Below, piece after piece: positions 18,001 to 43,733 of a DNA stretch of 64,000 nt. The notes beneath the pieces were generated by a model that was not told the origin of the DNA, did no database searches, and worked only from the letters and a program-made list of their open reading frames with translations. Position numbers and translations under genes: made by a program. Origin of the DNA: an uncultured bacterium. Lineage in GTDB: Bacteria > Omnitrophota > Omnitrophia > Omnitrophales > Aquincolibacteriaceae. The stretch is taken from the NCBI GenBank assembly GCA_964445745.1, contig CAYULU010000001.1, positions 35,873 to 99,872 of the forward strand, given 5' to 3'. Within the stretch, counting starts at the first letter, position 1. Each line of letters begins with the position of its first letter.

Positions 18001-19943
18001 AGGGTGGTAAATATATTGTCAGATTGCTTGAATACCTTGGAATTCGGCGATGGGTCCCCGGGCAGCGGGAGTTGGCGGCAGCGAAAGAACTTGGTAAAGA
18101 ATCCGAGTCTAATTTTTACAAGGCTGGGCAACCGGACGGAGCGCCTGTTTTTGGCGACAATTCAGTTGGAAAACAGCCGTTTAACACCAACACTTTTTAT
18201 ATCAATCAGGCCCGATTGATGCCTTTTCTTGCGGATCTCAAGCGCGTGATGGGGGAAGATGCGTATCTGGCAGAAGTTATTTCGCCCAATTTTATGAAGA
18301 AAGATACGAAACCTGGTCAGGATGGATATCAATATTTCCCAATCGACGGAGCAATTGGGAACGTCTACCACAATATTAACGAATTTGTGATGAAGCTGAC
18401 CCTGATCAGAGATGCTGGGAAGCTAACTGAGAAACAAAAGGAAATTCTGGAGGTGTTCGCGAAACATGGGATTCAGGAAGTGATCCACTATTACAATGTG
18501 CCGCGAACCATGTTTACGCCCCAAAAAAATCCCCTGGATGCTCTATTGCAAATGCTTGGGGGATACTATCGCTATGATCTTGAGACGGGCAACCTGGCGG
18601 AAACAGAAAATGATCTGGTGCCGCCTGAGGTTGTGATTGTGGATTCCCAGGGGAAGGCACAGGACAGTGGGGCCGGATATTACAGCGAATTTTTGAACAT
18701 GCTCCAGACCTTTGTCTCGATGGACAGAATCGAATCTATTCAGGCCTCCTCTTTTGATATTCGGGAGCTGGACAAGCTTGAAATCCATGGCAATATCTCA
18801 GTGCGGGACACGAAATTCGTCGGGAATGTGGAGATCATTAACCGGGGCACGAGTGAGAAGGTTTTTGATGTCCGCGATGCGATTTTGAGAAATTCCGGGC
18901 TTCGTGATCAAGTTGGCTACCAGGAAGGGCAGCCGCTTAAGCTGGAAAATGTGCGAATTACGATTGGTGAGTCGGGAGACATGTCAATTGAATCTGTCGG
19001 GGCACGCTCCGAAATTCGCCGTGTCCCCGTCAGTCCTGTCTCGGAAGTGAAATCATATGGGGCCTTTGTAAATAATTTTAGGGCGAAAGTTGATAATGGG
19101 AGTCCTTTGTTACCGGAAGAGAAAAGGGACTTTATTAAAGCCAGCTTGGAAAAAGCCAAAGGGTTGCAACGCATAATTTGGGATGCCCCTGAGGGGATTT
19201 TTGTGAGTTCTGAAGTGACAACAGTGTTTCAACCGGCGAATCGGCTCTACGAGGACATGCCGGATAATGAGTTTCTGAAAGCGGGCGACAGTCTGATTAA
19301 ATGGGATAGCGATATCAGTAAAAAAATATATGAGAGAGCGATGCGTGATGCTCTTAATGCGGTGGTGACCCAGAGACAGGAAGTGCGGCTCACGACGGAA
19401 GTTTCGAATCCTATTGCTTTGAGAGTCGAGGCGGGGGTGGCAGACGCCATTATTGCCGGGCTTAAGGCCGAAGGCATTGTCGTTCCTGTTGCGGAAGTTC
19501 TGGATAAGGGCGCTCTTATTGTGAAATATGACACAGAATTGATCGATCAGATGATCAAGCAGCGCGCAAGCGGCCAGATCGCCGCTGGCGTGAAGATCAT
19601 CGTGACGGCACGGGATATGGACGAGGCCTTCGCGGTCAGCAAACATTATGGCGACGCGGTGACCGCGGTCGTGACGAGTGTCGCGTATAACGTTAACAGT
19701 ATCGTTACTGATGAGATGGAGGCTCTTGGCTTGCGGGAACGCGGCAGAAGCCTGATCCAGGTGCGGCCCGGGACCGAAGCTACTCAAAATACCGCGGCTT
19801 ATCTTGCGGCAGCCCTGCTTTCGAATGGCAGGATCGTGGTGGTTGGAGAAGAAGAGCTGGTGTCTGGTGCGATCCAGATCAGCGTAGCCCAGATGCTCCG
19901 CGCCGAAATGCGCGCCGCTGAAGCTATCGCGAAGTCGGCGTAG
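57..19943 (+). CDS. Giant membrane protein (>=6628 aa). Mostly coiled-coil/helical and of unknown function. TM clusters at about aa 3950-4200 and 5050-5540. An Ala/Thr/Gly/Pro-rich linker, then a C-terminal UDPGP-family (UDP-sugar pyrophosphorylase-like) domain. 5' end possibly truncated by the window edge.
   Basis: Uninterrupted 19.9 kb ORF in the track. The frame has no stop back to nt 3, so the GTG at 57 is only the first start codon inside the window. Hydrophobic helices read directly from the translation. UDPGP motifs: LSLDGGLGEKL, GGHGQIG, FTNGDG, RKGGKYIVRLLEY, FNTNTFYIN. Confidence 0.88.
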   Translation: METIAEGPTDMTTLPTAVPLADAVQQKLAQFHDTLDEMGATVDMPVEDRAAQVREIREGLTRISNEYFGLSGDGAIATSFVDISRRVAQEEWALRPAEPAIPAPKSSQDVGSTIVAVVGDGAVAGVVAVAAEVADAVETAKALGVSPGGETPAVATLTKAAVGGQVIAGAALYDALKKGITDPTVQSALRNELERSPMPTTTEEMLFSEMAQLYSLLAASEEALKTQEYSDQYRKWTAFVNAGLNAVLTRHYEKTRYQGTAEEAYPGDPSIVKLVPYTRTNSTSRYDSWSAFAGAGLRTGSDMVQFNEVLEAEAASALSNYQIAVAQVIQQKLFHMTEIATLNERLNRLDAIKRAYLDKIQSLQETLSKSHASLPALKRQLEASLTSLEIARSNILASRDRHKTRLAFLMGRDPTFAHNDKDYTSYVETLTYDTIRNAALTDERTDDGIRIIVEQAQNYILRRSAELDKVLPGLSWQLTAPEALVSLGDESDWTARVNLFTFDIAWSFKDYMENQWVNAKTEAAKASVMGRMVDIQHDAIKRLYELRSLQAYVQQIKKQSTTELLVVEALLTSVTQKPVRDMDPIAAADQYILLLDQIASAEGELVKLENAEAELTKQLDGIKNGMTKLVEENQEIAKEVGFDPAGAKFRETAEFGYQQLTDNVNTEANSLVASYEDAQDKDAFIHELLAPSSRLAAGQYQAAAMRLDRVHQERLRLFAYLNAGFGASLEDPGAWTFVVNGGVGFDIPLLSFTRRAAKYSADAAQERADSYLLDLETRTHFELKVLLDRLAFMGKQITDQTNRVQTAQKVLAERVVEVRKRLGERGIVVDDETGRILDALSAGQTDELTKLIPVLVGRPMAERLEEKIWEALAGAANELAKEKTALSAMTDNRVKVQLLVKRLVTPDFRSVPSAEALTQANKEFTDADYQAQLKRVTNPYFRFLNENGIFLPSAAKDLRTMEGVLARFLPEMKEAADSAWAKYPKFRESKQAGDAEKERLIAGETKRLEEKREELAGARRQLDLEKPDEKADKKTQRAWQKSLSDLDKKQQKLDEELLELGKVESLIRTYKLFEESQGKLQRLVGDANNQSLEDQRHAMRELLEGLVTGTESYLTSEYLLAKMLDLGAYESRDDWYQGIRQMLGFIGDEGTSVFGYTGRIEAIQAAFVNVEKAWAAMKADLGIYGGVGYQRSRVQPETGEVTTGSVFTVGLGGIFNHLKRVILGARSGSQQTVAQLLAESSGEVIARAKAHAQESNETWGIQSEMGKLAARIELYEKIKEEFLQWRASYEPRPDGVRTNVDRLRSLLGPDRTTDESYSLKTADLEARIQSDTEAIRYLEAQLKRLGFSPSVIRQGTAHAEGFQSETTALAPIGEQLREMSRENYSRQSVTLNSMLDSVLARSTAGPSAYATSASMTQSPFYRDAGVFYQSLDADAGLPGADSNRFAVFSWSGADLFGSQKQTYTLMLRHTKSLEDSAVKENERVIQSKVRSIVSAASRLRVLNRMQKLLADQVSGLQKLEAMIGASRYEHGIKARSFDALETIASHESEDAFAANLSALWAEVKGMSVGEDEKKKIFYDRLADLMKVEENSLAKDLDSLKRQAGELGIALDLVEGLDLTQVGNLENYESDEAVRARIREEINRQFVKTLNQNRLQVSVKLGLSHPSHQSALSEGEPFLGFGASYLIYDSNLQAMINFWENRGSIEQLWARQGDQDDKVRWLELGLDVEKLQKEVELRKQVVESVAVAYQIARERARRDGYPDAPIDAAFRYMNELKAYKGAVDAYWEASQRMIDFAKEKKFEIELPRGTEDSIERIKAMIPKWIEDDTTEDVTAPKYLDETVKPELIGEGTRAADFSVDETLMYKDQQLATAVSDLLKTLGIADLSAEATLSQIKDRKDLETVMVNIFGRVAERYGRRDPAAWVGQVAKSYQSLTKDQFFEKTGFMEVGLGEEIWGNLFSQCFSMGPSAHKLLDQSGIDMNQLAMAAFMGELGQLAASRGEDGDSQKIAQALVNDFPGAIAALERMRGQSPGTYSLRSPVEGAEVLTLVLYRAMGDEALRDLTFDKILENEDHKRAIENLSPEFNLNNIFPGIMGVERNKDGWVDGWKETTKFLSIASGLYDVETQTVKLREIPVGDPEEFAYVMAQNIATILAHPRPGPDANPDQIADYQKMMEQMAYLTARFSHHLANSTNLTIKESDLTSTTYLRLKALEAKMIDEEKTQMIDPVSGTVVTLENVKIRKQAARDAEVEGRRMSNALAYVNDVLFGSGHDAGENRKEWLEKDLAERLRLTEDRVRLEDDFWGRKELQGYLSELTTGADGKKYKGDRPATAMEIYKDKQQVGGSISNMAWEALGETGKTLDRESLAYMETLSAEIAVLETRIVHPATSAADKLAAQDTVKGKKFLLERFNHAKAKKVADYTVLMGEETGRGDKSWTESDRIARVIATRRVMRDLRPKAEGLLGELSNDDPYDVSILRMLAESALPDIQPRYMPGAGGFDREKDWQNWEDLGIERRREILNNRLDYARIINAQLKKEGIELRLKDTKDTPVNLRGKDMGMLIADAMEASGETGNKLGWEAVQHIEKLENEIIELKAKIARDATPDPTVQAQLNEKLENLAVWKAAQKKVAKDYEVRQGWEDSKRIERMVELRKIIKAIRPYVERIYGPLDDSNPRDSGILRTLAELVYGDVQDAHMLGALGFDDAEEWAEWRDMGKDKRQAVLTGRLQIAANLNRSLQDSGIVLDLKDTNVTNLDEKGADMGLLMAIAENPEAWKEFFGLQKGKDGSWSVQLKSPYPSRIKALFEMVEEERGQALDPAKFSIEGFLRATDPTGIRGSMSVRRQQADWLSVASRLVFNAEKELGAGADVKAVKARAVEIGNRKIEIYKVANNEGMALTRNNLEFEDENLESLQKSDEGLTAQIYYRWIKEARGAREKAGETILADLNEKKPFWMHPKELIAMRAKVVGRKEESNNPGLANEPGDATADRAVIDLLIEDGKITAANAEKALDRTKYETMVKMYLQAAYMLYNLEIPENAAPGSNERVSKRLQTGDLSSKINPIMAAYDSDNLKEAERLLQREAQILKLTGLFKAALNGDNTIPIADNPYAAMAVNFPDLISKELEKMGIHLQPKDVTKIFRNMSKENVEGLMSRVMFLQESNAPFMEKDNDSEAVDYIYNWLRDMAFFSAAAYEVYGYFPTYEKLESLLKDARGSMDRLPTGPVNGGLRRWYEKKKLAGILLRDADLAGDRTLKPVIVSPVGQNVPGPERSLAATQPADESFSLREILTARSIRRNVFQELQPFSPFKDQGDGIGDLWYARKFKAIKVQLVKEKPEVTESEILSVQTRFVSEMKRARELFLRSSNESQDVLPENAAAQADAFMGEWADYWIRNVLSDDARKDRLESLAASTARMNADRVRAERESARKGNAAAIRERVLAGETEQDILKKNAAAITDFYNQSSWKGDGKIGARLLRSYADEMISQGYSEEEIVLLRLYIRPRLIAIVWPGLSARDLDVRHLADIDAWSLEILDSVSDLKKLDDIDNKIDVRFSEIQAFKGQIRGLLNADASFVELGKTEEGRLKQKNMVNRLANDASNRKLSPDKITKWFEVAKKMVPVPVLGPAAPGDKGSRQPVGLSRALWYADSLMQLGIAESLKPISWSDQVAKGMTDRFFVSIDEMYGLAPRDPATQEKQELTPRQAALFSKAGYEELHNYDRKWKEMWTPSAKWYEFWRWDELWNPTGVITKDQIERMGLDWAEVSTKLVNENKATFKKDWLFWKNPDALRLTQNVGDEIARDAVQKRAQFLLDRGDILPVDFDMFLRRVRSNYQQTIDQRARGFSDGYLEIDKTQVSSVSPFVIAMIADQQNPQQNQQFGFFKMFFGDADPKDLWRADSLVNSAMASAERRVNMEIVDKSSPSDSEKGWISRLLSPERAAGKSWWRAHVDRLVPSAKKDAQAPLFGASIYAALAGLVFLVVALFSTKRRIPKYGFDKAKDAAEKPAAIAAALTAAQAERTRLAAVLAAAEAAQQPPPAQRSEVRSIEEIRAAIAAQDRRIKELEAKQQVFAGLPAAEQEKLKADEKAWDKHQTLSRFRLDLLAALMFSMRVFLVLWIAAALTPYLGLTWAFALPLAFTLVFLKIYGWLYKNLSYVGISVLSATIKTLVFTLVVIVPITGVLVSLTPWVTLGGFFGGALGIATILWTTVLLQPGLLVMGLMWGVMLVLMTKWADPQSSLIVVDMKDEVREQFKKDFAEEEAQRVLRDLRELRDWLQAAEKKAEKDKVTVATALGTGKGSLKEKIQARIAELRNSLVVKNGNTYIRMPDGSLYFKEGEMAVVKGVTLHAGGTQEMDEVVYSFAESLIQNNIEQARFALGINGGSITKYMKLKDRYEKKEITKEDYEKELKTYKVGSLTIEEYVRGLRKRLEVYALVIPDVQRRLQIFLEPGCRKPFPNVLKWGAFTMYGEDGSKRNAENTKGGSMGQVSSKGINFVTTFNIFGRRILLGMTPAVIEAWLAENGGAKPGDLRIPLAAANEPFFAGVIKIPPQDIDGWIAEVDASSKKPQTIDEMVIPLEETRKDENLMGQYYPQLDEQGNLVPRVKHSTTVDGGNYVSNGSILTVSQALADRPDVGGLQMDTGYHTEDGTSMDWVQRRFAHHSGFWTIRFNAAVAGFERFFGKYTLVTRWAGEMSRPTAGMPWGAYYTRTVILSGFILNAIRRALSEGGGSYKFVAGVGDLAIVKDGEHKGELAIKEALKHTARKAVNDIVIAKLPTGVTLDNATDAQLVEALNKTLENPGLYEKAKPLLDNAGISRAEAMAKKGKDAVAQLGLRNRAILQAIYGEEIQNQTELSSTLDQKGLNGYAEGFPDAVNGIIAKMNGEDEIVTNTPSDNYVIHDYVRRHYDRIKAYKSMPEGPAKGWYWMWNLGRGPKLPIGWLIAKLFRVSELSERYLILSRLWIIHLPSLHQPAPFGKDFMDTTGMEYFDKMREEMKTEPVLLQGMNAALVVRADEVSGIIDDTQENYKKEEFQVKKSSESNDEPTEWAREAGIFALTKPTDFFNIFPREGAVANKQWLKSLLLSWALVFVPALFIITATHLAVLQMLVVLSVLVLAFLWGAFSKSIAVTMVNFRNDVQRMRNGEIRKGFGLLVWHYIQMHLWLVKDVLMWCSEKVFSTLKYMARVLNLWDFFWGQPGRIGVFDRDRKAPPAPPALGALATPSATQYAVEPNARRGITFGVALLGMLTLAKAFAVTEILAGLGFAVIGIAVASWMLWTFLSDPDSIGNVAGKALGEVVKDNEALGWVKGILAGVNTADDAVAAFKKVGVLKRVHVIWTVGWKSRGRIKEMVKAEEELAAKVGRAAFFPRAAFPFVDFIRLSNHLFIPLLFLGVVGLLMPVFAINVPISLIILTLPLTIPWVFGPFGQFVGGYIFNRKGEHNGKWRAQAWSIGLGAAFLGMGIAVHKLTLMQNVFGAILELIIHAPITAAISGMVEGGVGPFMGVLSGLSPYMMWVQSFIVGGMVLLVIVGMVWALIYWNQVRKEKKAADQKAAAKKAADDATAAAAAAAKSAAGTPAGNGTSGTTSGTSTATTPTQAPADTSDKALAGTEKPDVHATDVPGTTEVTPPSDQAQVEVPATEQKPAVEQTQPTEQKESAADTAASAIPEKSGSLLTEEQEAALRMVAANYAKVPYIAKYVRMALLYFGRSTDSKFKEVESAYVAAKPNGEGFPKTEFSSIEGNASLKKLAKTAVIQVLSLDGGLGEKLRRSLWKSWLLMKGFLNREGLEIDSEGNPRLGAKGTDMGYFVKLPDGRIVYVSVSESKLINLYRQGQQSRFSGLSFRAIVNAASRPSYEALFEKPNLLGIIAEGSTVPMTYRELLASVNVKVDDFLFQDKVPGLRVWVDKTGKEVFLPSVSDAGYSQEGGHGQIGVLTVINPEDYVPRTDGAPDFVAFTNGDGQVSSDISPEIIGDMIQRGRAIGNLVTAATRVDRKGGKYIVRLLEYLGIRRWVPGQRELAAAKELGKESESNFYKAGQPDGAPVFGDNSVGKQPFNTNTFYINQARLMPFLADLKRVMGEDAYLAEVISPNFMKKDTKPGQDGYQYFPIDGAIGNVYHNINEFVMKLTLIRDAGKLTEKQKEILEVFAKHGIQEVIHYYNVPRTMFTPQKNPLDALLQMLGGYYRYDLETGNLAETENDLVPPEVVIVDSQGKAQDSGAGYYSEFLNMLQTFVSMDRIESIQASSFDIRELDKLEIHGNISVRDTKFVGNVEIINRGTSEKVFDVRDAILRNSGLRDQVGYQEGQPLKLENVRITIGESGDMSIESVGARSEIRRVPVSPVSEVKSYGAFVNNFRAKVDNGSPLLPEEKRDFIKASLEKAKGLQRIIWDAPEGIFVSSEVTTVFQPANRLYEDMPDNEFLKAGDSLIKWDSDISKKIYERAMRDALNAVVTQRQEVRLTTEVSNPIALRVEAGVADAIIAGLKAEGIVVPVAEVLDKGALIVKYDTELIDQMIKQRASGQIAAGVKIIVTARDMDEAFAVSKHYGDAVTAVVTSVAYNVNSIVTDEMEALGLRERGRSLIQVRPGTEATQNTAAYLAAALLSNGRIVVVGEEELVSGAIQISVAQMLRAEMRAAEAIAKSA

Positions 19944-20492: not shown

Positions 20493-23400
20493 ATGCAAAA
20501 TGACCCGATGTTCGTGCCCGGTTTCTCGTGGAAGCGAAGTAAGTCGATAGTTGCGTTTGTCACGCTTGTCGCTTTTACCGTGACGACCCTTGTCTGGGAC
20601 CCCAGGGCATTCGCGGGGACGGGTGTGCCCGTGGCCGGTGAAGTTTCGGCCTTTGCACAAGGGGTTTTGCAGATTCCGGCTGAATTGGGTCAGGTGACCG
20701 AGACTTTGGTGGGGGATCCAAAGGCCCCTGCCTTCATTCATATCCAGTCCGCGCACGGGAACTATTCTGCGGAAAAGAATATCGAGAAACTTCTCGGATT
20801 TATCGAAAAGAATTCTTCTGTAAAACTGATGCTTCTTGAAGGGGCTTCCGGGAAGCTACATCCTAAAATGTTTCGCATGTTCCCCGCGCATCCGGAATTC
20901 AATCAAAAGGTCACGGACAAACTGGTGCGGGAAGGGTATCTCACCGGGCCGGAATCTTTTTTGATCGGGTCGGATGACAAAACAGAGGGATGGGGGATCG
21001 AGGACCTTGAAGCTTACAAAAAGGATCGTGAGTCGTTTATCCATGTCGTGGAGAAAGAAAAGGTTGCTGAGAAGTTCCTGGGTTCTTTGCGGGCCACGAT
21101 CGACAGACGTTTTTCATCGAAACTTAATAAAGACCTCCTGAACCTCGTCCGTCAGGAAGAAGCGTTTGGGTCGGGAACGGTTTCGTTTGAGGGCTGGCTT
21201 ACTGTCCTTAAAGCCGCGAGCCAAAAACATCTTACCCTTGACCTTTCGGATGCCTTTTATCAGAACCAGTATCCCTTTCTCATCCGCTATTTCCGCTTAC
21301 AGGCTATCGGTTCCAAGATCGACCGTGAAAAAGCGCGGCACGAAGCCGATGCTTTTCTCGTCGATCTTGCCAGTCGCAAGGTTTCTGAGGAAGTCCTCGA
21401 GAACTTCAAAGCCATCCTGCAAACATCCGAAACAGAGCTTTTGAGAACGGTCAGCCGTACCACGGATGGCTATTCCACGTTACGTCGGGCTTTCGACCTC
21501 GCTTTTAGCAGTCTCCCCAAAGATTTTTCCATGACGCAGTGGCCAAACTGGACCCTGTATGCCCAACACATCATCCTGATGCAGGAGATGGAAGGCAAAG
21601 GGCTTCATGAAGAGACCTTGAAGCTGAAGGACAAGATTCAGACAGCTTTAGCCAAGACCGCGGATGAAAAAGCATATCTCTCTCAGGCTCGGGAGCTGTA
21701 TTTATTGCGCCGTCTTTTTAACCTTGAACTAACGCGGCCGGAATATGAGGAGCTGGCGCAAACCGTTAAAACGTCCGACACTCAAGAGATTCAAACGCTC
21801 TATAAAACCGCCATGGATTTCTACTCGACCGCTGTTGAGCGTGAAAACAAGATGTTCCAAAATGCCCTTACGAAAATGGCCGGGACGAAGCAACAGCACG
21901 CTGTGATCGTCACAGGAGGATTCCACGCCGAAGGTCTCAAGAAACTCGTCACATCCAAAGGCTGTTCCTACATTCAGATCACGCCGCGCATTGCAGAAGT
22001 CTCGAAGCGTGACCATGAAGTGTATCTTCGCTCGATTCTCGGTTCCCGCGACGTTGAAACTTCCCAGATGAGCGCATTGCTTGGGATCGTCGATCGCGCG
22101 CAGCGTGTCGCCGTGACTGGCGTTGCTGCGACCAAAGACTGGGCTCGCGATGTCCGCAGTCTTGTTTTAGGTCTGATCAATTCTGAAAATGTCTCTGCCC
22201 GTCAGGCTCTTTCAGTGTCCTTTTCTAATTCTATTTTTGGTTCCCAAACACCTGCCTTGGTGCCTGTCATTGCTCGCGCTGAGGTGAGGGAAAAACAAGC
22301 TGCTACTAAAGTAGTTGCTGTAGACTCGCAGATCAATAGCATTGCCCAGAAATTGACGTTGGCGGCAGCGCTAGCTTTTACATCCGTTTCTGCCCATGCT
22401 GATTCAGTTGGAGTGCTTTCTTCGTTCTCCAGCGAACAGTCTGTTTCAGTATGGTTCTGGGGTAGCGTACTTTCCCTTGGAGCTCTTTTTGCTGGTTACT
22501 TTATCGTTTGGCGTCTCTTTTTTCCGATTAACTGGCACCTTCGGCGGCTTCTTAGTAATGAATATGCTGTTAGGAGCCGTGCGATTGAGAAACTTGTTAG
22601 CATAGGGTCTAAGGCCGTTCCCGCACTGATCAGAATTTTAGAAGATAAAACTAATATATCCAGTTCAAATGTTATAGAAATACTTGAAAGAATTAAAGAT
22701 GCTCGGTCCATTCCAGGATTGATTGTCGGACTGGGTGACAAATCTGAAGAAATACGTTTTCGCTCGGCTAGAGCGCTCGCGGAATTTGCTGATGCGCGAA
22801 TAGTTCCAACGTTGCGAAAAACTGCTGATGGTTGGTTGCAAGATCTTAGAAAACAGCGAGGTGAACTTGAGGAGACGCTTAAACAGACTCCCTCCACGAT
22901 TGAGCAAGAGGAAACTAGACAAGAGGAGCTTGTGGAATTGGGTGGCCGTGGGGACAGAGGAGGTGTTTATACAATAGGATATGAAATTGTCCCAACGGGG
23001 AGAATGGAAACTGTATCGAATTCTGCATATACGGATCTTTCTTGGAGAATTAGCCGTTTGGAAGTTGTGGAGCGAGAGATTGCATCCTTCTTGCTAAGAG
23101 CCGAAGAAGTAAACCATGTTCGCTCCGAAGTCCGCCTGACGCCCGCGCAGGAAAAGCAATTTCAGAAAGCTCTCCGCGATCTTCAGCCCAAGTGGTGGGA
23201 TGGACTGTTGGGTGAAATTGACGGGAATGAACGTAAAAAGCGTGCCTTAAAAACTCTTGGCGAACTCAAGGACTCCCGTTCGTTTAGGGTGCTGAAAGAA
23301 AAAATTTTGTTGCATCAAGAAGAGCCGAATTTTCCTTCTCAGCAGGCGGTCAAGTCCATGAAAGAATTTCCAACAGATATGCTACTTTCGGGGTTGATGC

Positions 23401-26400
23401 CGTTCTTGGGCTCCGAAGATGAGCGGGTCGGGCAAAACATGGTTTCTATATTCGAGGGGCTTGAAGATCCCGCGATAGTTTTGCCGATGATCCAGGCTCT
23501 CGAAGGCCGGGATCCGCGTGCCCGCGAGCGTGCCGCGAGCGTGCTTCTTGGATCACGCGACTTTCGGTCCCTCGACGCATTTTTGAGGGTTCTCAAAAAT
23601 TTAAACGAATCTGCTGAAATGCGTCGCACGGCAATTTCTGCCATCAGAAACTGGAATCCTTCAGATCTGGGCAAGGAGAGGACGACGCAGTGGGTCGAGG
23701 CGCTTATCTCGTGTCTGGATAATCCGCCTACACGAGACGATGCGGCTCGCACTTTGGGTGATTTAAAAGATCGAAGGGCTATCAAGCCGTTGGTTGATCG
23801 GCTTATGACGATCGATCCAAGCATGCTTCCGCCGGTCTTCTTGTTCGCGTTGAGAGACCTTCAGTGGGAACCAAAGAACGTAAACGAAGCAATCCGTTTT
23901 GCTTGCGGTTTGCGGAGTGATGCGACGATTTGGGACAAAGTGGCTTTATTTGGACCCGCGGCCGTTCCTTTGCTCATGGATCTTCTCATTTCCAAAGATT
24001 TTGAGTTGAGGCGAAATGTTGCGACGGTGCTTTTGAAAATTGCCGACCCCAAACTGGCGGGGCTCGACCGCTATCTTGAATGGACTCAGGATGGTACCCC
24101 ACCAGAACAGAGGAAGCTTATCTTCTTGACCCCTGAGAAAATTGAAACAATAAAAAGGGCTTTTGCGGAGGGAAGAACGATCCAGGTCGAATATGAGGAG
24201 CAAGAGATGGTCTCTCATCAGGAATCGTATCTGGACACGTACGGGCAAGATTATTTCTATGTTGTGGTCGATACTCCAGGGTATCTTTCTGTGAAGATTA
24301 CGGGCATGGGACAAGAGATCGGATCTGTTTCTGTTGCTCGGACTGTAGGGCCTGCTGTTACTGCTTCACCCAATGGTTTTCCGGAACCCTACGCGAAGGA
24401 TGTCGGTTTTTGGGAATTCCGGCTCCCTGTTTTTAACGCGGCGAGCGAAGGACTAAGTGTCACCCGGTTACGCGATGCGCTCGAAGTTCTGAAGAATCGT
24501 GGCTGGCTCTGGAGCCATTTTGAGTCCACCCATCGGGAGAGGGTCAACCAGCGCGCTACCGATCGGCTTGAGCAGCTCTTGTCGAAAGTTCACGCGGTCA
24601 TGATCACTTTGTATGCGAACGGGATTTTATCTGCGGCAACTCCGCTTGTTTCGCTTCAGCTTGCGGGAAGTTATCTCTGGACCGACTCGCCGAACGATCT
24701 GGATCTGGTCGTGATCGTCGAGGGCGAGCGGAATTTTGAAAAAATGTCCGCTTCGAATCATACGAATGGCTTCCTTCCCGTGATTCCCGGCATTGAGACT
24801 TCGTACGAAGTGGTCGGGCTCGAGACATTGAGACGGGCCGTGGGGGGGGATGAGGTCAAGGATGCGAATGTGATCCGGCGCAAGGCTATTATGTATTCGG
24901 TTTCTGTCCCTCTTGCCGGGATTGATCTTTTTGCTTCTCAATCGATTCCCTTCGATAGCTATGTCACGATGCGGAACGATCTTATGACGGATGCATCGAG
25001 AGCGGCGTGGAGGGATCTCAAGGGAGATCCGGCCAAGATTGCAGCCAAACGCCTCTGGCGTCAGGAGGAATCGGACGCAATGGAAAAATGGCTGGCAATG
25101 CAGAGGCGGTTGATTTCAGAAGGCAGTACTGAAGAACTTCGGAAAATGCATGAGCGGTTGAGTCAGATCGATTCGCTGATTCTCGCGGCCGAGGCGAATC
25201 TGGAGGAGGAAAAGTCGAAGTTGGCCAGGTTGCGGCAGCAAGATGTTTCTTTCGATGCCGGTGCGTCGCGAAGTGAAGCTAGCCAAAAACAGACTTTGCG
25301 ATCTGAGGTGAGAACCCAGCTGGGGGCAGAAGATTATGCTGCCGCCAATGGAGTGTTTTCGTATTTGGCCGAGCAGTCGCAGGATATTCCCATGAATCCG
25401 GATGTTTTGATTGTGCTCGGGAATCCTGACCATGAGGTGAACGGAACAGCGGCGGCAGCCCTGTATCATCGGCTCAATCCCAAATGGGTGTTAGTGGCTG
25501 GGAAAGGAAAAAAAGATCGGCCGGAGGCCCATGAATTCCGTGATGTTCTTGTCGCGAGGGGTGTGCCTGGAGATAAAATTTTTATCGAAGATCAGTCCAT
25601 GAACACGGGACAAAACGCACAATTTGGATCCAAATTGCTTCGCGAAGCGATGGAAAATCGCGATCCGGACATGCTCAATCGCCCAATCACGGCTGTCGTA
25701 ACACAGAAACCGATGGGACAACGATTATCGACGGATATCATGGAGAAACAATTCGCATGGCCGCAGGGTATCTCATTTTTTCCGTCGGCGCCCCGTGTGC
25801 CTCAGGTTAATGGACAAACTGACAATGAAGAATTTTTCCAGCTTGTTGCCGAAGCCCTTGACCAGATAAGACGTTTTCCAGACTTCGCGCGGCAAAAGTT
25901 CATTGATCCTAAAGCGGCTCAGCATCCTAATGAAGTGACGCAGGCCGTTGGGAGATTGACAGCCCTTATGCAATCCCGTTCCGAAACCCGCCTGACGCTC
26001 CATCAGGCCGATGACTCTGGCGAGCAGGAAAAGCAATTCCAGAAAGCTCTCCGCAATTTTCAGCTTTTTTCCTGGAAAAAGGTTGTGCCGATTGTGTTTT
26101 ACGTTGGGATTCACGTCGGGGGCTTTTTGCTCGTTCTTTCTTTTATTGTTTCATACTTCGACCTGGACCTTAAGTCTTTGCAGGATCGATATTGGTTAGT
26201 CTTGATGGGAAGTCCCTCATTTTTGATGACGGTTATGTTTCTCAGATCGTTGCCGGGTCTCTTGCGGCAGATACCTTCTGTCAATGATCATATCGCCGGG
26301 CGCCAAGCGGAAGAAGAGGCTGGCGCGGAATCTCGCTCCGAATCCCGGTTGTCATTGACGCCGCTGATCGGGCTGCCGGCGGAGCTGGATCTTGAGACAT

Positions 26401-29400
26401 TGGCGGTCCGGTATGGGCCGGGGGTCAGTTTTCTCAAGGCGTGGGAGAAAACGATGTTAAGCGAGACGCCCGCGGGAAATGGGCTTCCGCTCTGGAAGAG
26501 CATGGCTTTTGCGGCGGAATATATGAATGCAGCGGGCGAGGTTATTCAGCAGCCTGATCTTGAGAAATACTACGATCCTTCCAAAGTCCTATATCACGGT
26601 CACCAGGGAGCCTACTGGAGCGATCCGGAGCTTCAAAAATTGCTTGCGGCGCAGCATCTGAGGCCTGACGTGACGGTGCTTCCTGCGGGAGTGATTGGCC
26701 GTGAATTTCTGCGAACCGAAGGTCACCATCATCTTTCGGGTTTGCCGGAGGTTTATGAAACGGCGTATGGGACGAATGGGTATCTTCTTTTCAAGACCGT
26801 GAGTGAGGACTCGGAGGATATCGCGGACGTCATGTATGTTATGGCCGAGGCGGGGGATCATGTCCTGTTCCCTCCCGGGTATCAGCATATCAGCATTAAC
26901 ACGGGTTCGAGGCCGTTTGTGATGACCGATTGGGTGAGCATGAAAGCGAACTCTGATTTCAAGTACATCAAGCGCCATCATGGGGCCCCTTACCTGGTAG
27001 TCCGGGGGCCGGACGGTCAAGCTCAATTTGAGCGGAACGCACAATATCCTGGTAAAGTTCCGCCGATTCGTTTGGTGCGTCCAGCGGACGAGATTAAACT
27101 GGGTGATCAGGTGATCTTCAAAAAAGGTGTACCCATGTTCGATCTTGTCAAAAACGGACAGATTGATCTTTTAGCCTTCCTGAATGACACCAATGAGTCA
27201 GGGCGTTACGACGAACTTTACAAAAATGCGTTCCGCTCCGAATCTCGTTTATCCGTTTCTTCGGGAATCTCCTCGGACACAGATTCAGTAACGGGCGTGA
27301 CGCCGGCTCAGGAAAAGCAATTTCAGAAAGCTACCCGCAATTTTCAGTTCTTTTCCTGGAAAAGGGTCTTGCCGATTGTGTTGTACGTTGGGATTCACGT
27401 CGGGGGCTTTTTGCTCGTTCTTTCCTTGATTGTTTCAAACTTCGACCTGGACCTTAAGTCTTTGCAGGATCGATATTGGTTGGTCTTGATGGGAAGTCCC
27501 TCATTTTTGATGACGGTGATGTTTCTCAGATCGTTGCCGGATCTTTTGCGGCAGATGCCTTCAAACAATGATCATATCACCGGGCGCCAAGCGGAAGGAG
27601 AGGCTGGCGCGAAATCTCGCTCTGAGGTCCGGTGGACCGATTCTGAGGAAAGGCAATTCAAGGAGGTTCTTACCGGACATCAGGAAGGTTTGCCGCGCGG
27701 CAAGTTTGTTATGGAACTATTGCTAGCGGGGATGATAGGGATGATCTCGCTTGTAAGCCGAGCGGCTGAGGCTCCACGGACTAGAGGCGGTTTCACAAGT
27801 ATTTCCAACCCATTGTTTCTCAAGGGGTTGGAAAATGTAAAAGGGACTTATGAAAACGCTTCTATTGAGAACTCGACGGAAATCCGGGCGAAGGGGAGTG
27901 TGGCAACTCAATCTTTTTCCTCTCAACGGGTGGATCAGGAAACCCTGCATGCACATGTTGCTGACATCCCCAGCCTTTTGGAATCCTTGTATCATGAGGA
28001 TTCGTGGGTACGGGAACAGGCCCTGACGGCGCTCCGTACAATCAAGACGGAATCGGTTGTCACCGGACTCCTGAAGTCTTTGGACGACAAAACCGGTTTG
28101 AATGTTGCGGCCCGTGCGCGGGTGATTCAAACACTGAGTGAAATGGATGTTCTCGAAGCGGTCCCGGTTTTTATTCGAATTGCAAACGATCCGACGGAAC
28201 TTCGCTCCATTCAGGATATTGCTCTTCTTGCCATTTATTCGGTCAGGAATCCGGTAGCGGCCCCCGATCTGGTCAAAGCGCTTTCTTCGGATGATGCGGT
28301 TCTCAGGTTCTTTATCCTGAAAGCTCTCTCTGAGATGCCCGCTGTTTCAGTGACGGAAGCTTTGAAAGAGGGGCTTCATAACCCGGACCCCCGAATTGCA
28401 GAGAGTTCTTTTGTAGCGTTGGTCCAGCGCGGGAAAATTTATGAAGTGAATGATCCGGCGCTCGTGCCTTTTCTTAAAAAGATGATGGCTCACGGAGAGT
28501 TTTCTTACAGACATTTCGCCGCGGACGCATTGTACCGGATCAGCAAAATCCAATACTATCAAGCTGCTTATGGTCCGCTTCTTAAGGAAATAATCAAAAT
28601 GTGGGCAGGAATATTTGCTTTTATCCTGACGCCTTTTGGAGTGGCACGTGTGCTTAAGAAAATCCAGCTCCACCACTATCGCGAACGGGATTTTTATGCC
28701 AGCCATACCGATTCTGGCATTGATTTTGCCGGTACTGTAGATAAGAGCGCGAAGTACCCTCGCTCCGAATCTCGGAATATTGAGGAAACGCGCCCTGGTT
28801 TTTTTACGTCAGAAATTCGGTCTGAAATGCGATGGGATGAGGCTGTGGTGACGCCCCGGGTCTTGGTGGAATCCGGGAGTGGCAGTTTAGCCGCGAAGAT
28901 TGGGACGGCGGCCCGGGTAGCGGCGAACACGGTTTCGCCTCTGCTTTCGAGTTCGCCTGTCTATGCTTCAGAAATCGCCCCGCAACTTTTTGCGGGGACT
29001 GAACACTACCAGTCTGTTCCGGAAATTCCGGGTTCTTTCACGGCACAATGGCCGGTACTGGGAAAGATCGTAAGCGGGTCTGCGACTGCGTCTGCGGAGC
29101 GCCTGGTCATTGATCAGCGGCACGGGATTCCCGATAAGGAGAGCGTTCTTCCCCTGGTTGCGTTTGCCCGCTATAACCCGAAGACCACAGTGGTGCTGGC
29201 GCTGATCGCGACTGAAGATCAGGTCTCGGATTTTCAAAAAGCAGTGGCGGCTCTCCACGGAGGGAAGGCATGGCCGCAAAATTTAAAAGTTCGGGCCTTT
29301 GCGGATGAGAATGCGTTTATTCCGGAGTTTAATGGGTTTTATAACGCTTCTGCGCCGTTGGGCCGCCCTGTAGCACTTGTGACGGATCAGGAGGGTTCAC

Positions 29401-29633
29401 TTGTGACCGGAAAGATCGGGTTTCGGAGAAGTCTCTTGAGCGTTGTGGGTGACAGGGACTCTCTTAAGCAGACGGCGTCGGTGTTGCTTGCCGCGGACAA
29501 ACTTCTTGATGAATCCGTGTGGTCGTTGGGTTATCACTTTGTCTCTGTCGATAAGCTTGGCGGGCTGGAGATGCTGATGACGGAGCTTACGAACTTTATA
29601 CGGTCTGAGGCCCGAATGGCCGCCTCGGCATAA
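20493..29633 (+). CDS. Giant multidomain membrane protein (3046 aa). N-terminal signal anchor plus a TraB/GumN-like domain, HEAT-repeat arrays, an NTase-fold motif, a DUF218/YdcF-like domain, and a cupin-type PGI-like domain flanked by duplicated TM hairpin repeats.
   Basis: 9.1 kb ORF with ATG start, hydrophobic N-terminus SIVAFVTLVAFTVTTLVW. HEAT repeats around AVPALIRILED...VRFRSARALAEFAD. NTase motif GSYLWTDSPNDLDLVVIV. DUF218 motif IFIEDQSMNTGQNAQF. Cupin PGI motifs TEGHHH...PEVYE and PPGYQHISIN. Confidence 0.9.
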   Translation: MQNDPMFVPGFSWKRSKSIVAFVTLVAFTVTTLVWDPRAFAGTGVPVAGEVSAFAQGVLQIPAELGQVTETLVGDPKAPAFIHIQSAHGNYSAEKNIEKLLGFIEKNSSVKLMLLEGASGKLHPKMFRMFPAHPEFNQKVTDKLVREGYLTGPESFLIGSDDKTEGWGIEDLEAYKKDRESFIHVVEKEKVAEKFLGSLRATIDRRFSSKLNKDLLNLVRQEEAFGSGTVSFEGWLTVLKAASQKHLTLDLSDAFYQNQYPFLIRYFRLQAIGSKIDREKARHEADAFLVDLASRKVSEEVLENFKAILQTSETELLRTVSRTTDGYSTLRRAFDLAFSSLPKDFSMTQWPNWTLYAQHIILMQEMEGKGLHEETLKLKDKIQTALAKTADEKAYLSQARELYLLRRLFNLELTRPEYEELAQTVKTSDTQEIQTLYKTAMDFYSTAVERENKMFQNALTKMAGTKQQHAVIVTGGFHAEGLKKLVTSKGCSYIQITPRIAEVSKRDHEVYLRSILGSRDVETSQMSALLGIVDRAQRVAVTGVAATKDWARDVRSLVLGLINSENVSARQALSVSFSNSIFGSQTPALVPVIARAEVREKQAATKVVAVDSQINSIAQKLTLAAALAFTSVSAHADSVGVLSSFSSEQSVSVWFWGSVLSLGALFAGYFIVWRLFFPINWHLRRLLSNEYAVRSRAIEKLVSIGSKAVPALIRILEDKTNISSSNVIEILERIKDARSIPGLIVGLGDKSEEIRFRSARALAEFADARIVPTLRKTADGWLQDLRKQRGELEETLKQTPSTIEQEETRQEELVELGGRGDRGGVYTIGYEIVPTGRMETVSNSAYTDLSWRISRLEVVEREIASFLLRAEEVNHVRSEVRLTPAQEKQFQKALRDLQPKWWDGLLGEIDGNERKKRALKTLGELKDSRSFRVLKEKILLHQEEPNFPSQQAVKSMKEFPTDMLLSGLMPFLGSEDERVGQNMVSIFEGLEDPAIVLPMIQALEGRDPRARERAASVLLGSRDFRSLDAFLRVLKNLNESAEMRRTAISAIRNWNPSDLGKERTTQWVEALISCLDNPPTRDDAARTLGDLKDRRAIKPLVDRLMTIDPSMLPPVFLFALRDLQWEPKNVNEAIRFACGLRSDATIWDKVALFGPAAVPLLMDLLISKDFELRRNVATVLLKIADPKLAGLDRYLEWTQDGTPPEQRKLIFLTPEKIETIKRAFAEGRTIQVEYEEQEMVSHQESYLDTYGQDYFYVVVDTPGYLSVKITGMGQEIGSVSVARTVGPAVTASPNGFPEPYAKDVGFWEFRLPVFNAASEGLSVTRLRDALEVLKNRGWLWSHFESTHRERVNQRATDRLEQLLSKVHAVMITLYANGILSAATPLVSLQLAGSYLWTDSPNDLDLVVIVEGERNFEKMSASNHTNGFLPVIPGIETSYEVVGLETLRRAVGGDEVKDANVIRRKAIMYSVSVPLAGIDLFASQSIPFDSYVTMRNDLMTDASRAAWRDLKGDPAKIAAKRLWRQEESDAMEKWLAMQRRLISEGSTEELRKMHERLSQIDSLILAAEANLEEEKSKLARLRQQDVSFDAGASRSEASQKQTLRSEVRTQLGAEDYAAANGVFSYLAEQSQDIPMNPDVLIVLGNPDHEVNGTAAAALYHRLNPKWVLVAGKGKKDRPEAHEFRDVLVARGVPGDKIFIEDQSMNTGQNAQFGSKLLREAMENRDPDMLNRPITAVVTQKPMGQRLSTDIMEKQFAWPQGISFFPSAPRVPQVNGQTDNEEFFQLVAEALDQIRRFPDFARQKFIDPKAAQHPNEVTQAVGRLTALMQSRSETRLTLHQADDSGEQEKQFQKALRNFQLFSWKKVVPIVFYVGIHVGGFLLVLSFIVSYFDLDLKSLQDRYWLVLMGSPSFLMTVMFLRSLPGLLRQIPSVNDHIAGRQAEEEAGAESRSESRLSLTPLIGLPAELDLETLAVRYGPGVSFLKAWEKTMLSETPAGNGLPLWKSMAFAAEYMNAAGEVIQQPDLEKYYDPSKVLYHGHQGAYWSDPELQKLLAAQHLRPDVTVLPAGVIGREFLRTEGHHHLSGLPEVYETAYGTNGYLLFKTVSEDSEDIADVMYVMAEAGDHVLFPPGYQHISINTGSRPFVMTDWVSMKANSDFKYIKRHHGAPYLVVRGPDGQAQFERNAQYPGKVPPIRLVRPADEIKLGDQVIFKKGVPMFDLVKNGQIDLLAFLNDTNESGRYDELYKNAFRSESRLSVSSGISSDTDSVTGVTPAQEKQFQKATRNFQFFSWKRVLPIVLYVGIHVGGFLLVLSLIVSNFDLDLKSLQDRYWLVLMGSPSFLMTVMFLRSLPDLLRQMPSNNDHITGRQAEGEAGAKSRSEVRWTDSEERQFKEVLTGHQEGLPRGKFVMELLLAGMIGMISLVSRAAEAPRTRGGFTSISNPLFLKGLENVKGTYENASIENSTEIRAKGSVATQSFSSQRVDQETLHAHVADIPSLLESLYHEDSWVREQALTALRTIKTESVVTGLLKSLDDKTGLNVAARARVIQTLSEMDVLEAVPVFIRIANDPTELRSIQDIALLAIYSVRNPVAAPDLVKALSSDDAVLRFFILKALSEMPAVSVTEALKEGLHNPDPRIAESSFVALVQRGKIYEVNDPALVPFLKKMMAHGEFSYRHFAADALYRISKIQYYQAAYGPLLKEIIKMWAGIFAFILTPFGVARVLKKIQLHHYRERDFYASHTDSGIDFAGTVDKSAKYPRSESRNIEETRPGFFTSEIRSEMRWDEAVVTPRVLVESGSGSLAAKIGTAARVAANTVSPLLSSSPVYASEIAPQLFAGTEHYQSVPEIPGSFTAQWPVLGKIVSGSATASAERLVIDQRHGIPDKESVLPLVAFARYNPKTTVVLALIATEDQVSDFQKAVAALHGGKAWPQNLKVRAFADENAFIPEFNGFYNASAPLGRPVALVTDQEGSLVTGKIGFRRSLLSVVGDRDSLKQTASVLLAADKLLDESVWSLGYHFVSVDKLGGLEMLMTELTNFIRSEARMAASA
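26025..26348 (+). repeat. Intragenic direct repeat A (324 bp) inside giant gene 2. About 95% identical to repeat B at 27309..27632. Encodes a QEKQFQKA helix plus a two-helix TM hairpin plus RSExR.
   Basis: Near-identical nucleotide blocks seen directly. Spacing 1284 bp, in frame. Confidence 0.9.
27309..27632 (+). repeat. Intragenic direct repeat B (324 bp), paired with 26025..26348.
   Basis: Same as repeat A. The two repeats bracket the cupin-PGI-like domain. Confidence 0.9.
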
Positions 29634-43555: not shown

Positions 43556-43733
43556 TATATAATAAGATAAAAAATACTATAAAAACATCCTTGAAATAGC
43601 TTCGCTGTGATGGCATGCTTTAAGTAGATGTAAATAATCAACATATAAAAATTAGATCAGCTTACTACCGTTGGCTGTCTTGACGGGCTGGCGTGTTGAG
43701 GAACTTCGAACCTTTAGTAAGACAACATTTTTT

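What the first reader, a model, noticed from the sequence alone, without database searches (positions are those of the whole stretch)
26025..27632. Cupin-type phosphoglucose-isomerase-like domain bracketed by two 324-bp near-identical intragenic repeats in giant gene 2
Two ~95%-identical 324-bp blocks (26025-26348 and 27309-27632) are 1284 bp apart and in frame. Each encodes a helix, a two-TM hairpin and an RSExR motif. Between them, at about 26560-27100, is a cupin domain with the archaeal-type cupin PGI signatures VTVLPAGVIGREFLRTEGHHH...PEVYE (TxGHxH...ExY) and an exact PPGYQHISIN (PPx3Hx3N). So a sugar-phosphate isomerase-like cupin sits between duplicated membrane hairpins. The high nucleotide identity implies a recent duplication or ongoing gene conversion. 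The repeats could also drive deletion or amplification of the cassette (phase-variation-like).
Basis: seen in the sequence. Interest (0 to 1): 0.72.

Follow-up and report, generated by a model that had tools for sequence, protein, structure and literature searches.

The report
Cupin isomerase cassette in modular giant gene
A complete cupin-type sugar-phosphate isomerase-like protein sits between two recently duplicated membrane-anchor segments inside a 3,046-residue Omnitrophota gene that is built from whole proteins joined end to end by a strict five-residue marker (Arg-Ser/Ala-Glu-x-Arg), which may be the long-sought cutting site of these giant proteins.

Summary
Two in-frame 324-bp repeats (26025-26348, 27309-27632) lie 1284 bp apart. 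Their identity is 91.7%, not about 95%. Each encodes an amphipathic helix, one strong and one borderline hydrophobic helix, and ends in RSExR.

The 300 residues between them hit Pfam PF06560 (82.6 bits), fold like the Pyrococcus and Thermococcus cupin PGIs, and keep all four metal ligands. The counterparts of PfPGI Tyr152 and His158 are lost. The genome also has a conventional transaldolase-PGI gene, so glucose-6-phosphate specificity is unproven.

RSExR belongs to the whole gene class, not to the repeat. R[S/A]ExR occurs 20 times in the three long ORFs (0.28 RSExR expected) and never in the other genes.

- It lies within 0-3 residues of where free-standing homologues of the cupin start and stop.
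- It brackets the cupin in an unrelated metagenomic giant ORF.
- It is replaced by GARLA or [AS][SG]SP[VIL] in other lineages.
- It ends g1 and g2 with a short tail.
- In relatives, a CAG/TAG polymorphism just after it splits the gene in two.
- Signal peptides follow some copies.

The organism is a Ca. Omnitrophota bacterium. Cleavage at the marker is inferred, not shown.

The parts
20493..29633 (+). g2, a 3046-aa modular ORF. Modules in order: signal anchor plus conserved ~600-aa module, HEAT/Arm modules, DUF218, anchor A, cupin, anchor B, TM-HEAT-TM module, conserved last module.
25299..25976 (+). DUF218 (YdcF-like) module, opening with delimiter RSEVR.
   Evidence: PF02698 E = 8.4e-14. Weak N-terminal register with E. 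coli YdcF 3ca8.
25977..25991 (+). Delimiter RSETR, at the start of anchor module A.
26025..26348 (+). Repeat copy A. Helix QEKQFQKALRNFQ 26025-26063; hydrophobic helix 1 26082-26159; borderline hydrophobic helix 2 26190-26252; delimiter RSESR 26334-26348.
26349..27233 (+). Complete cupin PGI-family module (295 aa after the delimiter). Pfam PF06560 match 26628-27035. Metal-ligand codons: H131 at 26724, H133 at 26730, E139 at 26748, H185 at 26886.
27234..27248 (+). Delimiter RSESR. It directly follows ...LYKNAF, the position where free-standing homologues end.
27309..27632 (+). Repeat copy B. Helix 27309-27347; hydrophobic helix 1 27366-27443; helix 2 27474-27536; delimiter RSEVR 27618-27632.
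27618..28760 (+). Next module: degenerate helix (SEERQFKEVL), TM, HEAT repeats, TM. It is homologous (29%) to the module that follows the single anchor-derived module in relative L015.
23121..23186 (+). Delimiter RSEVR plus a third copy of the TPAQEKQFQKAL helix-coding stretch (53 nt; 87% identical to copy B, 75% to copy A).
22275..22289 (+). Delimiter variant RAEVR, ending the N-terminal module. That module is a separate 649-aa gene ending RAELRQD* in relatives.
29601..29633 (+). Terminal delimiter RSEAR plus the 5-aa tail MAASA and the stop codon. Conserved as RSEARMATSA* in relatives.
57..19943 (+). g1, a 6628-aa ORF with no Pfam hit. Delimiters at 12159, 19005 and 19899. It ends RAEMRAAEAIAKSA*.
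43671..54395 (+). g3, a 3574-aa ORF. Delimiters at 45978, 47091, 48291, 49419, 50184, 51981 and 53538. An internal Sec-type signal peptide follows RAEVR (47091) and precedes PG_binding_1. The module from 48291 is a GT2.
36586..39462 (+). Conventional bifunctional transaldolase/PGI gene (PF00923 + PF00342). The genome therefore already has a canonical PGI.

Best explanation
The region is three consecutive modules of a modular long ORF in a Candidatus Omnitrophota chromosome: membrane-anchor module A, a complete cupin-PGI-family protein, and membrane-anchor module B.

**Shown.**
- These ORFs are strings of whole proteins (cytoplasmic enzymes, membrane pieces, secreted or lipoprotein precursors).
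- The proteins are joined with almost no linker by a strict pentapeptide, R-[S/A]-E-[V/T/I/L/A/S/M]-R.
- The 324-bp repeats are a recent duplication, or gene conversion, of the anchor module. It arose while a cupin cassette was gained next to a pre-existing anchor.
- Related genomes carry other cassettes at this place.

**Inferred.**
- The cupin is an active metal-dependent aldose-ketose isomerase acting on a phosphosugar. The positive-inside pattern of the anchors suggests it is held at the cytoplasmic face of the membrane.
- The pentapeptide is a maturation signal, most likely a proteolytic cleavage site after the second Arg. Cleavage would release the modules and leave ...R[S/A]ExR as a C-terminal tag. 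The giant ORF would then work like a polyprotein.
For: **Cupin.**
- PF06560: 82.6 bits against a cut-off of 20.7.
- PDB sequence hits are only cupin PGIs.
- AF2 model of the whole 300-aa module: pLDDT 94.8, pTM 0.91.
- The top 12 Foldseek hits are P. furiosus and T. litoralis PGIs or an engineered relative (E about 1e-15, TM on target 0.72-0.78). Other cupins score about 1e-6.
- PfPGI H88, H90, E97, H136, T71, T85, G87 and Y99 map to identical residues. The four metal ligands are invariant in 48 family members.

**The module is a whole protein.** 700 relatives were found. Many are free-standing proteins of 260-300 aa that match end to end. Their Met aligns 0-1 residue from the last Arg of the upstream delimiter. 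Their C-termini (AFIDF*, AFVPY*) align with ...NAF|RSESR.

**Delimiter.**
- 16 RSExR plus 4 RAExR in 13.3 k residues of the long ORFs, against 0.28 RSExR expected. It is the most frequent gapped 5-mer.
- None in 6.8 k residues of other + strand ORFs.
- Codons vary (TCN/AGT for Ser; CGN/AGR for Arg), so selection acts on the peptide.
- No conservation in the flanking residues across 47 unique sites.
- L004, an independent giant ORF, has 23 copies and brackets its cupin with RSEVR on both sides.
- L003 has GARLA 21 times at the same boundaries.
- Four more distant giants have [AS][SG]SP[VIL] near one or both boundaries.
- g1 and g2 end with the delimiter plus 5-9 residues.
- In relatives, a CAG/TAG difference three codons after RAELR separates a 649-aa gene from a 2291-aa gene. 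The two are fused in other strains.
- Signal peptides or lipoboxes follow some delimiters.

**Cassette turnover and age.**
- Relatives with at least 90% identical housekeeping proteins share the last module (87%) but have no cupin in the 3' ~2,360 residues that could be compared.
- Where the whole gene was annotated, the domains listed are cytidylate kinase, CofD, NTP_transf_3 and guanylate kinase, again with no cupin.
- L015 has one anchor-derived module before the same HEAT module.
- A and B are 91.7% identical, against 74-79% to L015.
Against: - No cleavage has been observed and no cognate protease was found in the window or in the modules.
- Not every domain boundary carries a delimiter. 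One 1340-aa stretch in L015 has none, and g1 has only 3 in 6628 aa.
- Some inter-delimiter pieces are only 19-40 aa.
- In the AF2 model the first beta-strand starts at the last delimiter residue, so a protease would have to act before folding.
- The PfPGI residues Tyr152 and His158 are not kept, and a canonical PGI exists in the window.
- The second TM helix of the anchor is borderline, so the side of the membrane is uncertain.
Confidence: 0.62

Rival explanations
1. The ORF is one uncleaved, membrane-tethered multi-enzyme protein. R[S/A]ExR would be a linker or docking peptide, for example bound by the abundant HEAT/Arm repeat modules, that organises the modules rather than separating them.
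For: - HEAT/Arm repeats are the commonest domains in g2 and in published Omnitrophota giants.
- No protease was found.
- Very short inter-delimiter pieces exist.
- The delimiter abuts folded structure.
Against: - Internal lipoprotein and Sec signal peptides right after delimiters make more sense with free N-termini.
- A natural stop codon just after a delimiter yields separate genes in many strains.
- The terminal delimiter with a short tail, and the exact match to the termini of free-standing proteins, point to separable units.
Confidence: 0.27
2. The repeats act as a phase-variation switch. Recombination between copies A and B would delete or amplify the cupin cassette in frame within a population, and this on/off switching would be the function.
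For: - The repeat spacing is 1284 bp, a multiple of 3, so a deletion would keep the frame.
- Exact runs of up to 43 nt exist.
- Cassette content differs between related genomes.
Against: - 8.3% divergence with 27 mismatches is a poor substrate for frequent switching.
- Only one repeat pair exists, and there is no associated recombinase or simple-sequence tract.
- The differences between relatives involve unrelated modules at 30-58% identity, which means long-term cassette replacement rather than toggling.
Confidence: 0.1
3. The cupin module is not a glucose-6-phosphate isomerase. It would be another cupin-type sugar isomerase or epimerase, or a non-catalytic sugar-binding unit.
For: - PfPGI Tyr152 and His158 map to Val and Ser (roles from PMC6627849).
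- The module is 300 aa with extra N- and C-terminal parts, against about 190 aa for solved cPGIs.
- No NCBIfam model matches.
- A canonical Tal-PGI gene is present.
- The family-specific invariant or near-invariant residues D112, R91 and R110 are not among the PfPGI active-site residues examined here.
Against: - The four metal ligands, T71, T85, G87 and Y99 are all kept.
- Solved cPGIs are the best structural match by nine orders of magnitude.
- Sources annotate relatives as glucose-6-phosphate isomerase family.
Confidence: 0.35
4. The duplicated arrangement is an assembly artefact: mis-threading through a repeat, or a chimera of strains.
For: - The exact g2 protein is not on record in the public gene index.
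- Short-read contigs of the same organism break inside g2.
Against: - The copies differ at 27 positions and the longest exact run is 43 nt.
- All four junctions are unique and the frame is intact over 9.1 kb.
- The module family is real in relatives.
Confidence: 0.03

Closest known systems
Cupin-type phosphoglucose isomerase (Pfam PF06560; P. furiosus and T. litoralis PGI, PDB 1x7n, 1j3p)
   Same: The module matches the Pfam profile and the cupin barrel. It keeps the four Mn/Fe ligands (H88, H90, E97, H136) and T71, T85, G87 and Y99. It also carries the GHxH...ExY and PPxxxHxxxN motifs.
   Different: It is 300 aa with structured N- and C-terminal extensions. Tyr152 and His158 are replaced. It belongs to an uncharacterised branch whose free-standing members (260-300 aa) occur in Armatimonadota and DPANN archaea, and as modules in Omnitrophota. 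Here it is embedded in a 3046-aa ORF. Its activity has not been tested.
Omnitrophota giant ORFs: 'Archaeovorins' and multi-enzyme metabolic giants (West-Roberts et al. 2023, 10.1101/2023.11.21.568195; 10.64898/2026.06.07.730766)
   Same: Same phylum. The ORF combines HEAT repeats, many TM segments and sugar-metabolism enzyme domains. Glucose-phosphate isomerase domains are listed for Archaeovorins. Post-translational cleavage has been proposed for them.
   Different: These ORFs are far shorter (3.0-6.6 k aa, against 30 k aa or more). No C39 or S8 peptidase domain was found. The published work states that cleavage points are unknown, and treats internal signal-peptide calls as artefacts. Here a discrete delimiter motif is identified.
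Viral polyproteins with short protease sites, internal signal sequences and TM hairpins (for example flavivirus polyproteins; my own knowledge)
   Same: Whole proteins are concatenated with short conserved junction peptides that differ between lineages. Internal signal peptides and TM hairpins set the topology. The junction is functionally equivalent to a stop/start.
   Different: This is a cellular chromosome. No protease has been identified and no cleavage shown. The modules are metabolic enzymes and scaffold repeats.
C-terminal protein-sorting or processing tags (sortase and exosortase type; my own knowledge)
   Same: [quoted passage not shown]
   Different: The tails are not hydrophobic TM segments. 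The motif is used many times internally. No sorting enzyme is known.

Membership tests
Cupin-type PGI (PF06560, EC 5.3.1.9) | Match to the Pfam PF06560 profile above the gathering score | tested here: met
   82.6 bits against 20.7, E = 2.7e-23, module residues 99-234 to profile positions 40-175 of 182.
Cupin-type PGI (PF06560, EC 5.3.1.9) | Cupin barrel closest to the solved cPGI structures | tested here: met
   AF2 pLDDT 94.8. Foldseek top 12 hits are PfPGI, TlPGI or an engineered relative, E = 8e-16 to 2e-13, TM on target 0.72-0.78. The next cupins score about 1e-6.
Cupin-type PGI (PF06560, EC 5.3.1.9) | Metal ligands His88, His90, Glu97 and His136 (PMC6627849) | tested here: met
   They map to H131, H133, E139 and H185. 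These are invariant in 48 relatives.
Cupin-type PGI (PF06560, EC 5.3.1.9) | Tyr152 and His158, involved in proton transfer and substrate contact (PMC6627849) | tested here: not met
   The phmmer alignment puts V201 and S207 there. The register in this C-terminal part could be shifted.
Cupin-type PGI (PF06560, EC 5.3.1.9) | Single-domain enzyme of about 190 aa | tested here: not met
   The module and its free-standing relatives are 260-300 aa, with confidently folded N- and C-terminal extensions.
Cupin-type PGI (PF06560, EC 5.3.1.9) | Catalyses G6P/F6P interconversion | not testable with these tools
   Needs an enzyme assay. A canonical Tal-PGI gene is also present.
Omnitrophota giant ORFs (Archaeovorin / multi-enzyme class) | Encoded by Omnitrophota | tested here: met
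   Housekeeping proteins cluster at 90% or more with Ca. Omnitrophota / Omnitrophica MAG proteins.
Omnitrophota giant ORFs (Archaeovorin / multi-enzyme class) | HEAT repeats, TM segments and metabolic enzyme domains in one ORF | tested here: met
   HEAT_2, Arm, DUF218 and GPI hits, with 6-8 hydrophobic segments. Relatives carry cytidylate and guanylate kinase, CofD and NTP transferase.
Omnitrophota giant ORFs (Archaeovorin / multi-enzyme class) | Length above the published thresholds (20 kb or more; 10,000 or 30,000 aa or more) | tested here: not met
   g2 is 3046 aa, g3 3574 aa and g1 6628 aa (19.9 kb).
Polyprotein processed at junction motifs | Units correspond to whole independent proteins | tested here: met
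   The cupin module matches free-standing proteins end to end. The N-terminal module is a separate 649-686-aa gene in relatives. For DUF218 and GT2 the N-terminal register is only approximate.
Polyprotein processed at junction motifs | A conserved short motif at the junctions, enriched over chance | tested here: met
   16 RSExR against 0.28 expected. None in other genes. Present at both cupin boundaries in the window and in L004. Lineage variants GARLA and [AS][SG]SP[VIL].
Polyprotein processed at junction motifs | A cognate protease encoded by the system | tested here: inconclusive
   No peptidase family was detected in the giants or in neighbouring genes. The weak Tiki/ChaN-like hit in the first module is below cut-off and its AF2 model is poor. 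The rest of the genome was not available.
Polyprotein processed at junction motifs | Cleavage products observed | not testable with these tools
   Needs proteomics or expression experiments.
Phase-variable (contingency) cassette | Within-population length heterogeneity generated by the repeats | not testable with these tools
   No reads are available. The repeats are 91.7% identical, with exact runs of 43 nt or less.

The most novel reading that the evidence does not exclude
R[S/A]ExR, and its counterparts GARLA and [AS][SG]SP[VIL] in other lineages, are lineage-specific maturation (cleavage) signals. Omnitrophota long and giant ORFs would then be true bacterial polyproteins. Dozens of independent cytoplasmic, membrane and secreted proteins would be translated as one chain and then separated, each keeping the motif as a C-terminal tag. 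Cassettes would be exchanged at the delimiters.
Probability: 0.42. Interest if true: 0.9.

Novelty: new variant of a known kind. Interest (0 to 1): 0.66.

Why it matters
Three papers on Omnitrophota giant ORFs leave open what these proteins are. One says outright that nobody knows whether they act as single chains or are cut into pieces, and that cleavage points are unknown. A strict, lineage-specific junction peptide would make that question directly testable and would give natural cut points for structure prediction and annotation. The peptide coincides with the ends of free-standing homologues, it ends the ORFs, and in nature it can be replaced by a stop codon. The cupin cassette is a clean test case: a confidently folded 300-aa enzyme-like unit with delimiters on both sides. 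By itself, a cupin PGI-family domain in an Omnitrophota long ORF is not surprising.

Tried and rejected
1. **DNA-level signal.** I asked whether RSExR encodes an internal Shine-Dalgarno (GAGGT) or a recombination site. Rejected: half of the Glu codons are GAA, and Ser and Arg use both codon families.
2. **Paralogous linker.** I asked whether the motif is just part of a duplicated linker. Rejected: 47 unique sites show no flanking conservation.
3. **Exact look-up of g2** with two alternative starts found nothing.
4. **Anchor module homologues.** A search of 5.8 billion proteins found none (earlier 552-aa query). The only relative is the truncated module in L015.
5. **Other libraries.** NCBIfam and PADLOC give nothing for the cupin, anchor or last module.
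6. **Protease hunt.** There is no peptidase family in g1-g3 or in neighbouring genes. The weak Tiki/ChaN hit in the first module is below cut-off, the PDB sequence search was empty and the AF2 model had pLDDT 58, so I ran no fold search.
7. **Literature.** No held paper contains RSEVR or RSExR. Hits to 'GARLA' are surnames.
8. **Genome-collection scan.** The GTDB-representative scan returned only one relative, L003.

Full report
**Observation**

The window carries three long + strand ORFs: g1 (57-19943, 6628 aa), g2 (20493-29633, 3046 aa) and g3 (43671-54395, 3574 aa). Inside g2 the only long direct repeat in the window is 26025-26348 against 27309-27632.
- The copies start 1284 bp apart, which is 428 codons, so they are in frame.
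- They differ at 27 of 324 nt (91.7% identity). At protein level 94 of 108 residues are identical.
- 14 codon differences are non-synonymous and 9 are synonymous. The longest exact run is 43 nt.
- Identity falls to 20-31% immediately outside.

Each copy encodes the helix QEKQFQKA(L/T)RNFQ and a strongly hydrophobic 26-residue helix. A second helix is borderline (Kyte-Doolittle maximum 1.53). Each copy then ends in RSESR or RSEVR. Basic residues before helix 1 and after helix 2, with an acidic loop between them, fit an in-out-in hairpin. That topology is an inference.

**The cupin**

The 300 residues between the delimiters at 26334 and 27234 hit PF06560 (GPI) with 82.6 bits against a cut-off of 20.7. 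By sequence they hit only the cupin PGIs in the PDB.

An AlphaFold model built on 48 relatives is confident from end to end (pLDDT 94.8, pTM 0.91). Its 12 best PDB matches are P. furiosus and T. litoralis PGIs or an engineered relative (E about 1e-15, TM on target 0.72-0.78). Other cupins follow at about 1e-6.

PfPGI His88, His90, Glu97 and His136 are the Mn ligands (PMC6627849). They map to H131, H133, E139 and H185. T71, T85, G87 and Y99 are also kept, and the four ligands are invariant in the family alignment.

Two points weaken the case for G6P specificity:
- Tyr152 and His158, described as involved in proton transfer (PMC6627849), align with Val201 and Ser207.
- A conventional transaldolase/PGI fusion gene lies at 36586-39462.

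I therefore call it a cupin-PGI-family, probably metal-dependent sugar-phosphate isomerase, with specificity unproven.

**The module is a whole protein**

An exhaustive profile search found 700 relatives. Many are free-standing proteins of 260-300 aa that match the module over its full length. Sources label them as hypothetical (a Pacearchaeota MAG), 'glucose-6-phosphate isomerase' (an Armatimonadetes MAG) or GPI-family (Omnitrophota).

In alignments the initiator Met of the free-standing forms falls 0-1 residue from the last Arg of RSESR. Their C-termini (AFIDF*, AFIAC*, AFVPY*) align with ...LYKNAF, directly before the next RSESR.

**The delimiter**

RSExR is the most frequent gapped 5-mer of the three long ORFs.
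- There are 16 copies against 0.28 expected from composition, plus 4 RAExR.
- There are none in 6.8 k residues of the other + strand ORFs.
- Codon choice varies at every position (TCN and AGT; CGN and AGR; GAA and GAG), so the constraint is on the peptide.
- Across 47 unique sites from the window and relatives nothing outside the five residues is conserved. Position 4 is V > T, I, L, A, S, M.

An unrelated metagenomic contig (L004, Ga0156526_1162) is one open frame of more than 4117 aa with 23 such motifs. Its cupin module has RSEVR on both sides.

The only relative among the one-genome-per-species representatives scanned (L003) is an open frame of more than 6817 aa. It has GARLA 21 times instead, at the same two cupin boundaries, with hybrids RSESGARLS and RAELRGARLA. 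Four more distant Omnitrophota giants have [AS][SG]SP[VIL] near one or both ends of their cupin modules.

g2 ends RSEARMAASA* and g1 ends RAEMRAAEAIAKSA*.

The N-terminal ~600-aa module of g2 ends with RAEVR and continues. In relatives the same protein is a separate 649-aa gene ending RAELRQD* (a cluster of 14 sequences). In other strains CAG replaces TAG and the frame runs on for 2799 aa.

Signal peptides follow some delimiters:
- a lipoprotein precursor, SMDRIVRVGLAGLSLAGLLGLSNGC, in L004;
- a Sec-type signal peptide before a peptidoglycan-binding domain in g3;
- a signal-peptide-like stretch after RAEVR in g2.

**Comparative context**

Housekeeping proteins place the window in Candidatus Omnitrophota; one of the named relatives is MAG ADurb.Bin292.

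In syntenic relatives the gene upstream of nadE keeps the last module (87% identity, same RSEMR and RSEAR). No cupin matched in the 3' ~2,360 residues that could be compared. Where the whole gene was annotated, the domains listed are cytidylate kinase, CofD, NTP_transf_3, DUF218 and guanylate kinase, again with no cupin.

L015 has one 84-aa anchor-derived module (TM1 deleted), directly before the homologue of the TM-HEAT-TM module that follows copy B here. Copies A and B are closer to each other (91.7%) than to L015 (74-79%). The duplication, or the last conversion, therefore post-dates that split. It most simply accompanied insertion of the cupin cassette next to an existing anchor.

A third copy of the helix-coding 53 nt sits after RSEVR at 23121.

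**Mechanism**

Shown:
- a modular ORF made of whole proteins;
- a peptide-level junction motif;
- cassette turnover between relatives;
- a recent anchor duplication;
- a cupin with an intact metal site.

Inferred:
- the motif is a maturation signal, most simply cleavage after the second Arg;
- the cupin works at the cytoplasmic face.

Against cleavage:
- no protease was found;
- some long stretches lack delimiters;
- some inter-delimiter pieces are only 19-40 aa;
- the delimiter abuts the first beta-strand of the model.

The main rival is an uncleaved scaffolded enzyme array in which the motif is a docking or linker peptide.

**Comparison with the literature**

Published work reports HEAT repeats, TM segments and glycolytic enzyme domains, including glucose-phosphate isomerase, in Omnitrophota giants. 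It proposes proteolysis, states that cleavage points are unknown, and discards internal signal-peptide calls. No held paper contains RSEVR or RSExR.

The cupin-in-a-long-ORF is thus a new member of a known kind. The delimiter is the new element.

**Dead ends**

These are listed under Tried and rejected.

Noticed in passing
window 61134-62718: An mcsA-like gene (UVR motif) is followed by an mcsB-type protein arginine kinase (PF00217, E = 6.6e-66). They lie in the same window as ORFs punctuated by an Arg-x-x-x-Arg motif. I tested no link.
   Followed up: no
window 19932-19995 and 20088-20151: A 64-nt direct repeat (91% identical, 156 nt apart) begins with the last three codons and the stop of g1 (AAG TCG GCG TAG). 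It lies in the 550-nt gap between g1 and g2.
   Followed up: no
L020:119-193, L024:202-276 versus L016-L018:641-715: A single CAG/TAG difference three codons after RAELR decides whether the first ~650-aa module is a separate gene or is fused to the downstream ORF of more than 2,000 aa.
   Followed up: yes
L003 (whole locus, frame 3): GARL(A) occurs 21 times in a 6817-aa open frame, against one RAELR. It takes the place of RSExR at both cupin boundaries. The source record labels this MAG 'Planctomycetia'.
   Followed up: partly
P0024, P0029, P0028, P0110: Omnitrophota multi-domain proteins with more distant cupin modules carry [AS][SG]SP[VIL] (up to 10 copies). In P0024 and P0029 it lies close to both ends of the module; in P0028 and P0110 at one end, with a degenerate version (SASSA, ASLPI) at the other. 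This may be another lineage's delimiter.
   Followed up: partly
L004:1325-2377: The L004 cupin has an insertion of about 45 aa in a loop. It contains LFSWKKLTPIHF, which resembles the start of hydrophobic helix 1 of the window's anchor module (LFSWKKVVPIVF).
   Followed up: no
window 57-19943: g1 (6628 aa) has no Pfam match at all. Every gene assigned a function in the 64-kb window lies on the + strand, with positive GC skew throughout, and all three long ORFs share one reading frame.
   Followed up: no
window 47091-47250: An internal Sec-type signal peptide (MISNVRKILMAGILSIAMMSSAIA) starts 10 residues after delimiter RAEVR in g3. A PG_binding_1 domain follows it.
   Followed up: partly
window 20493-22274: The first module of g2 has a signal anchor and a weak Tiki/ChaN-superfamily hit (PF04187, about 20 bits, below cut-off). 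It contains HxxSAH...LLEGA...GGFH-like motifs. Its AF2 model is poor (pLDDT 58), so whether it is a peptidase is open.
   Followed up: partly
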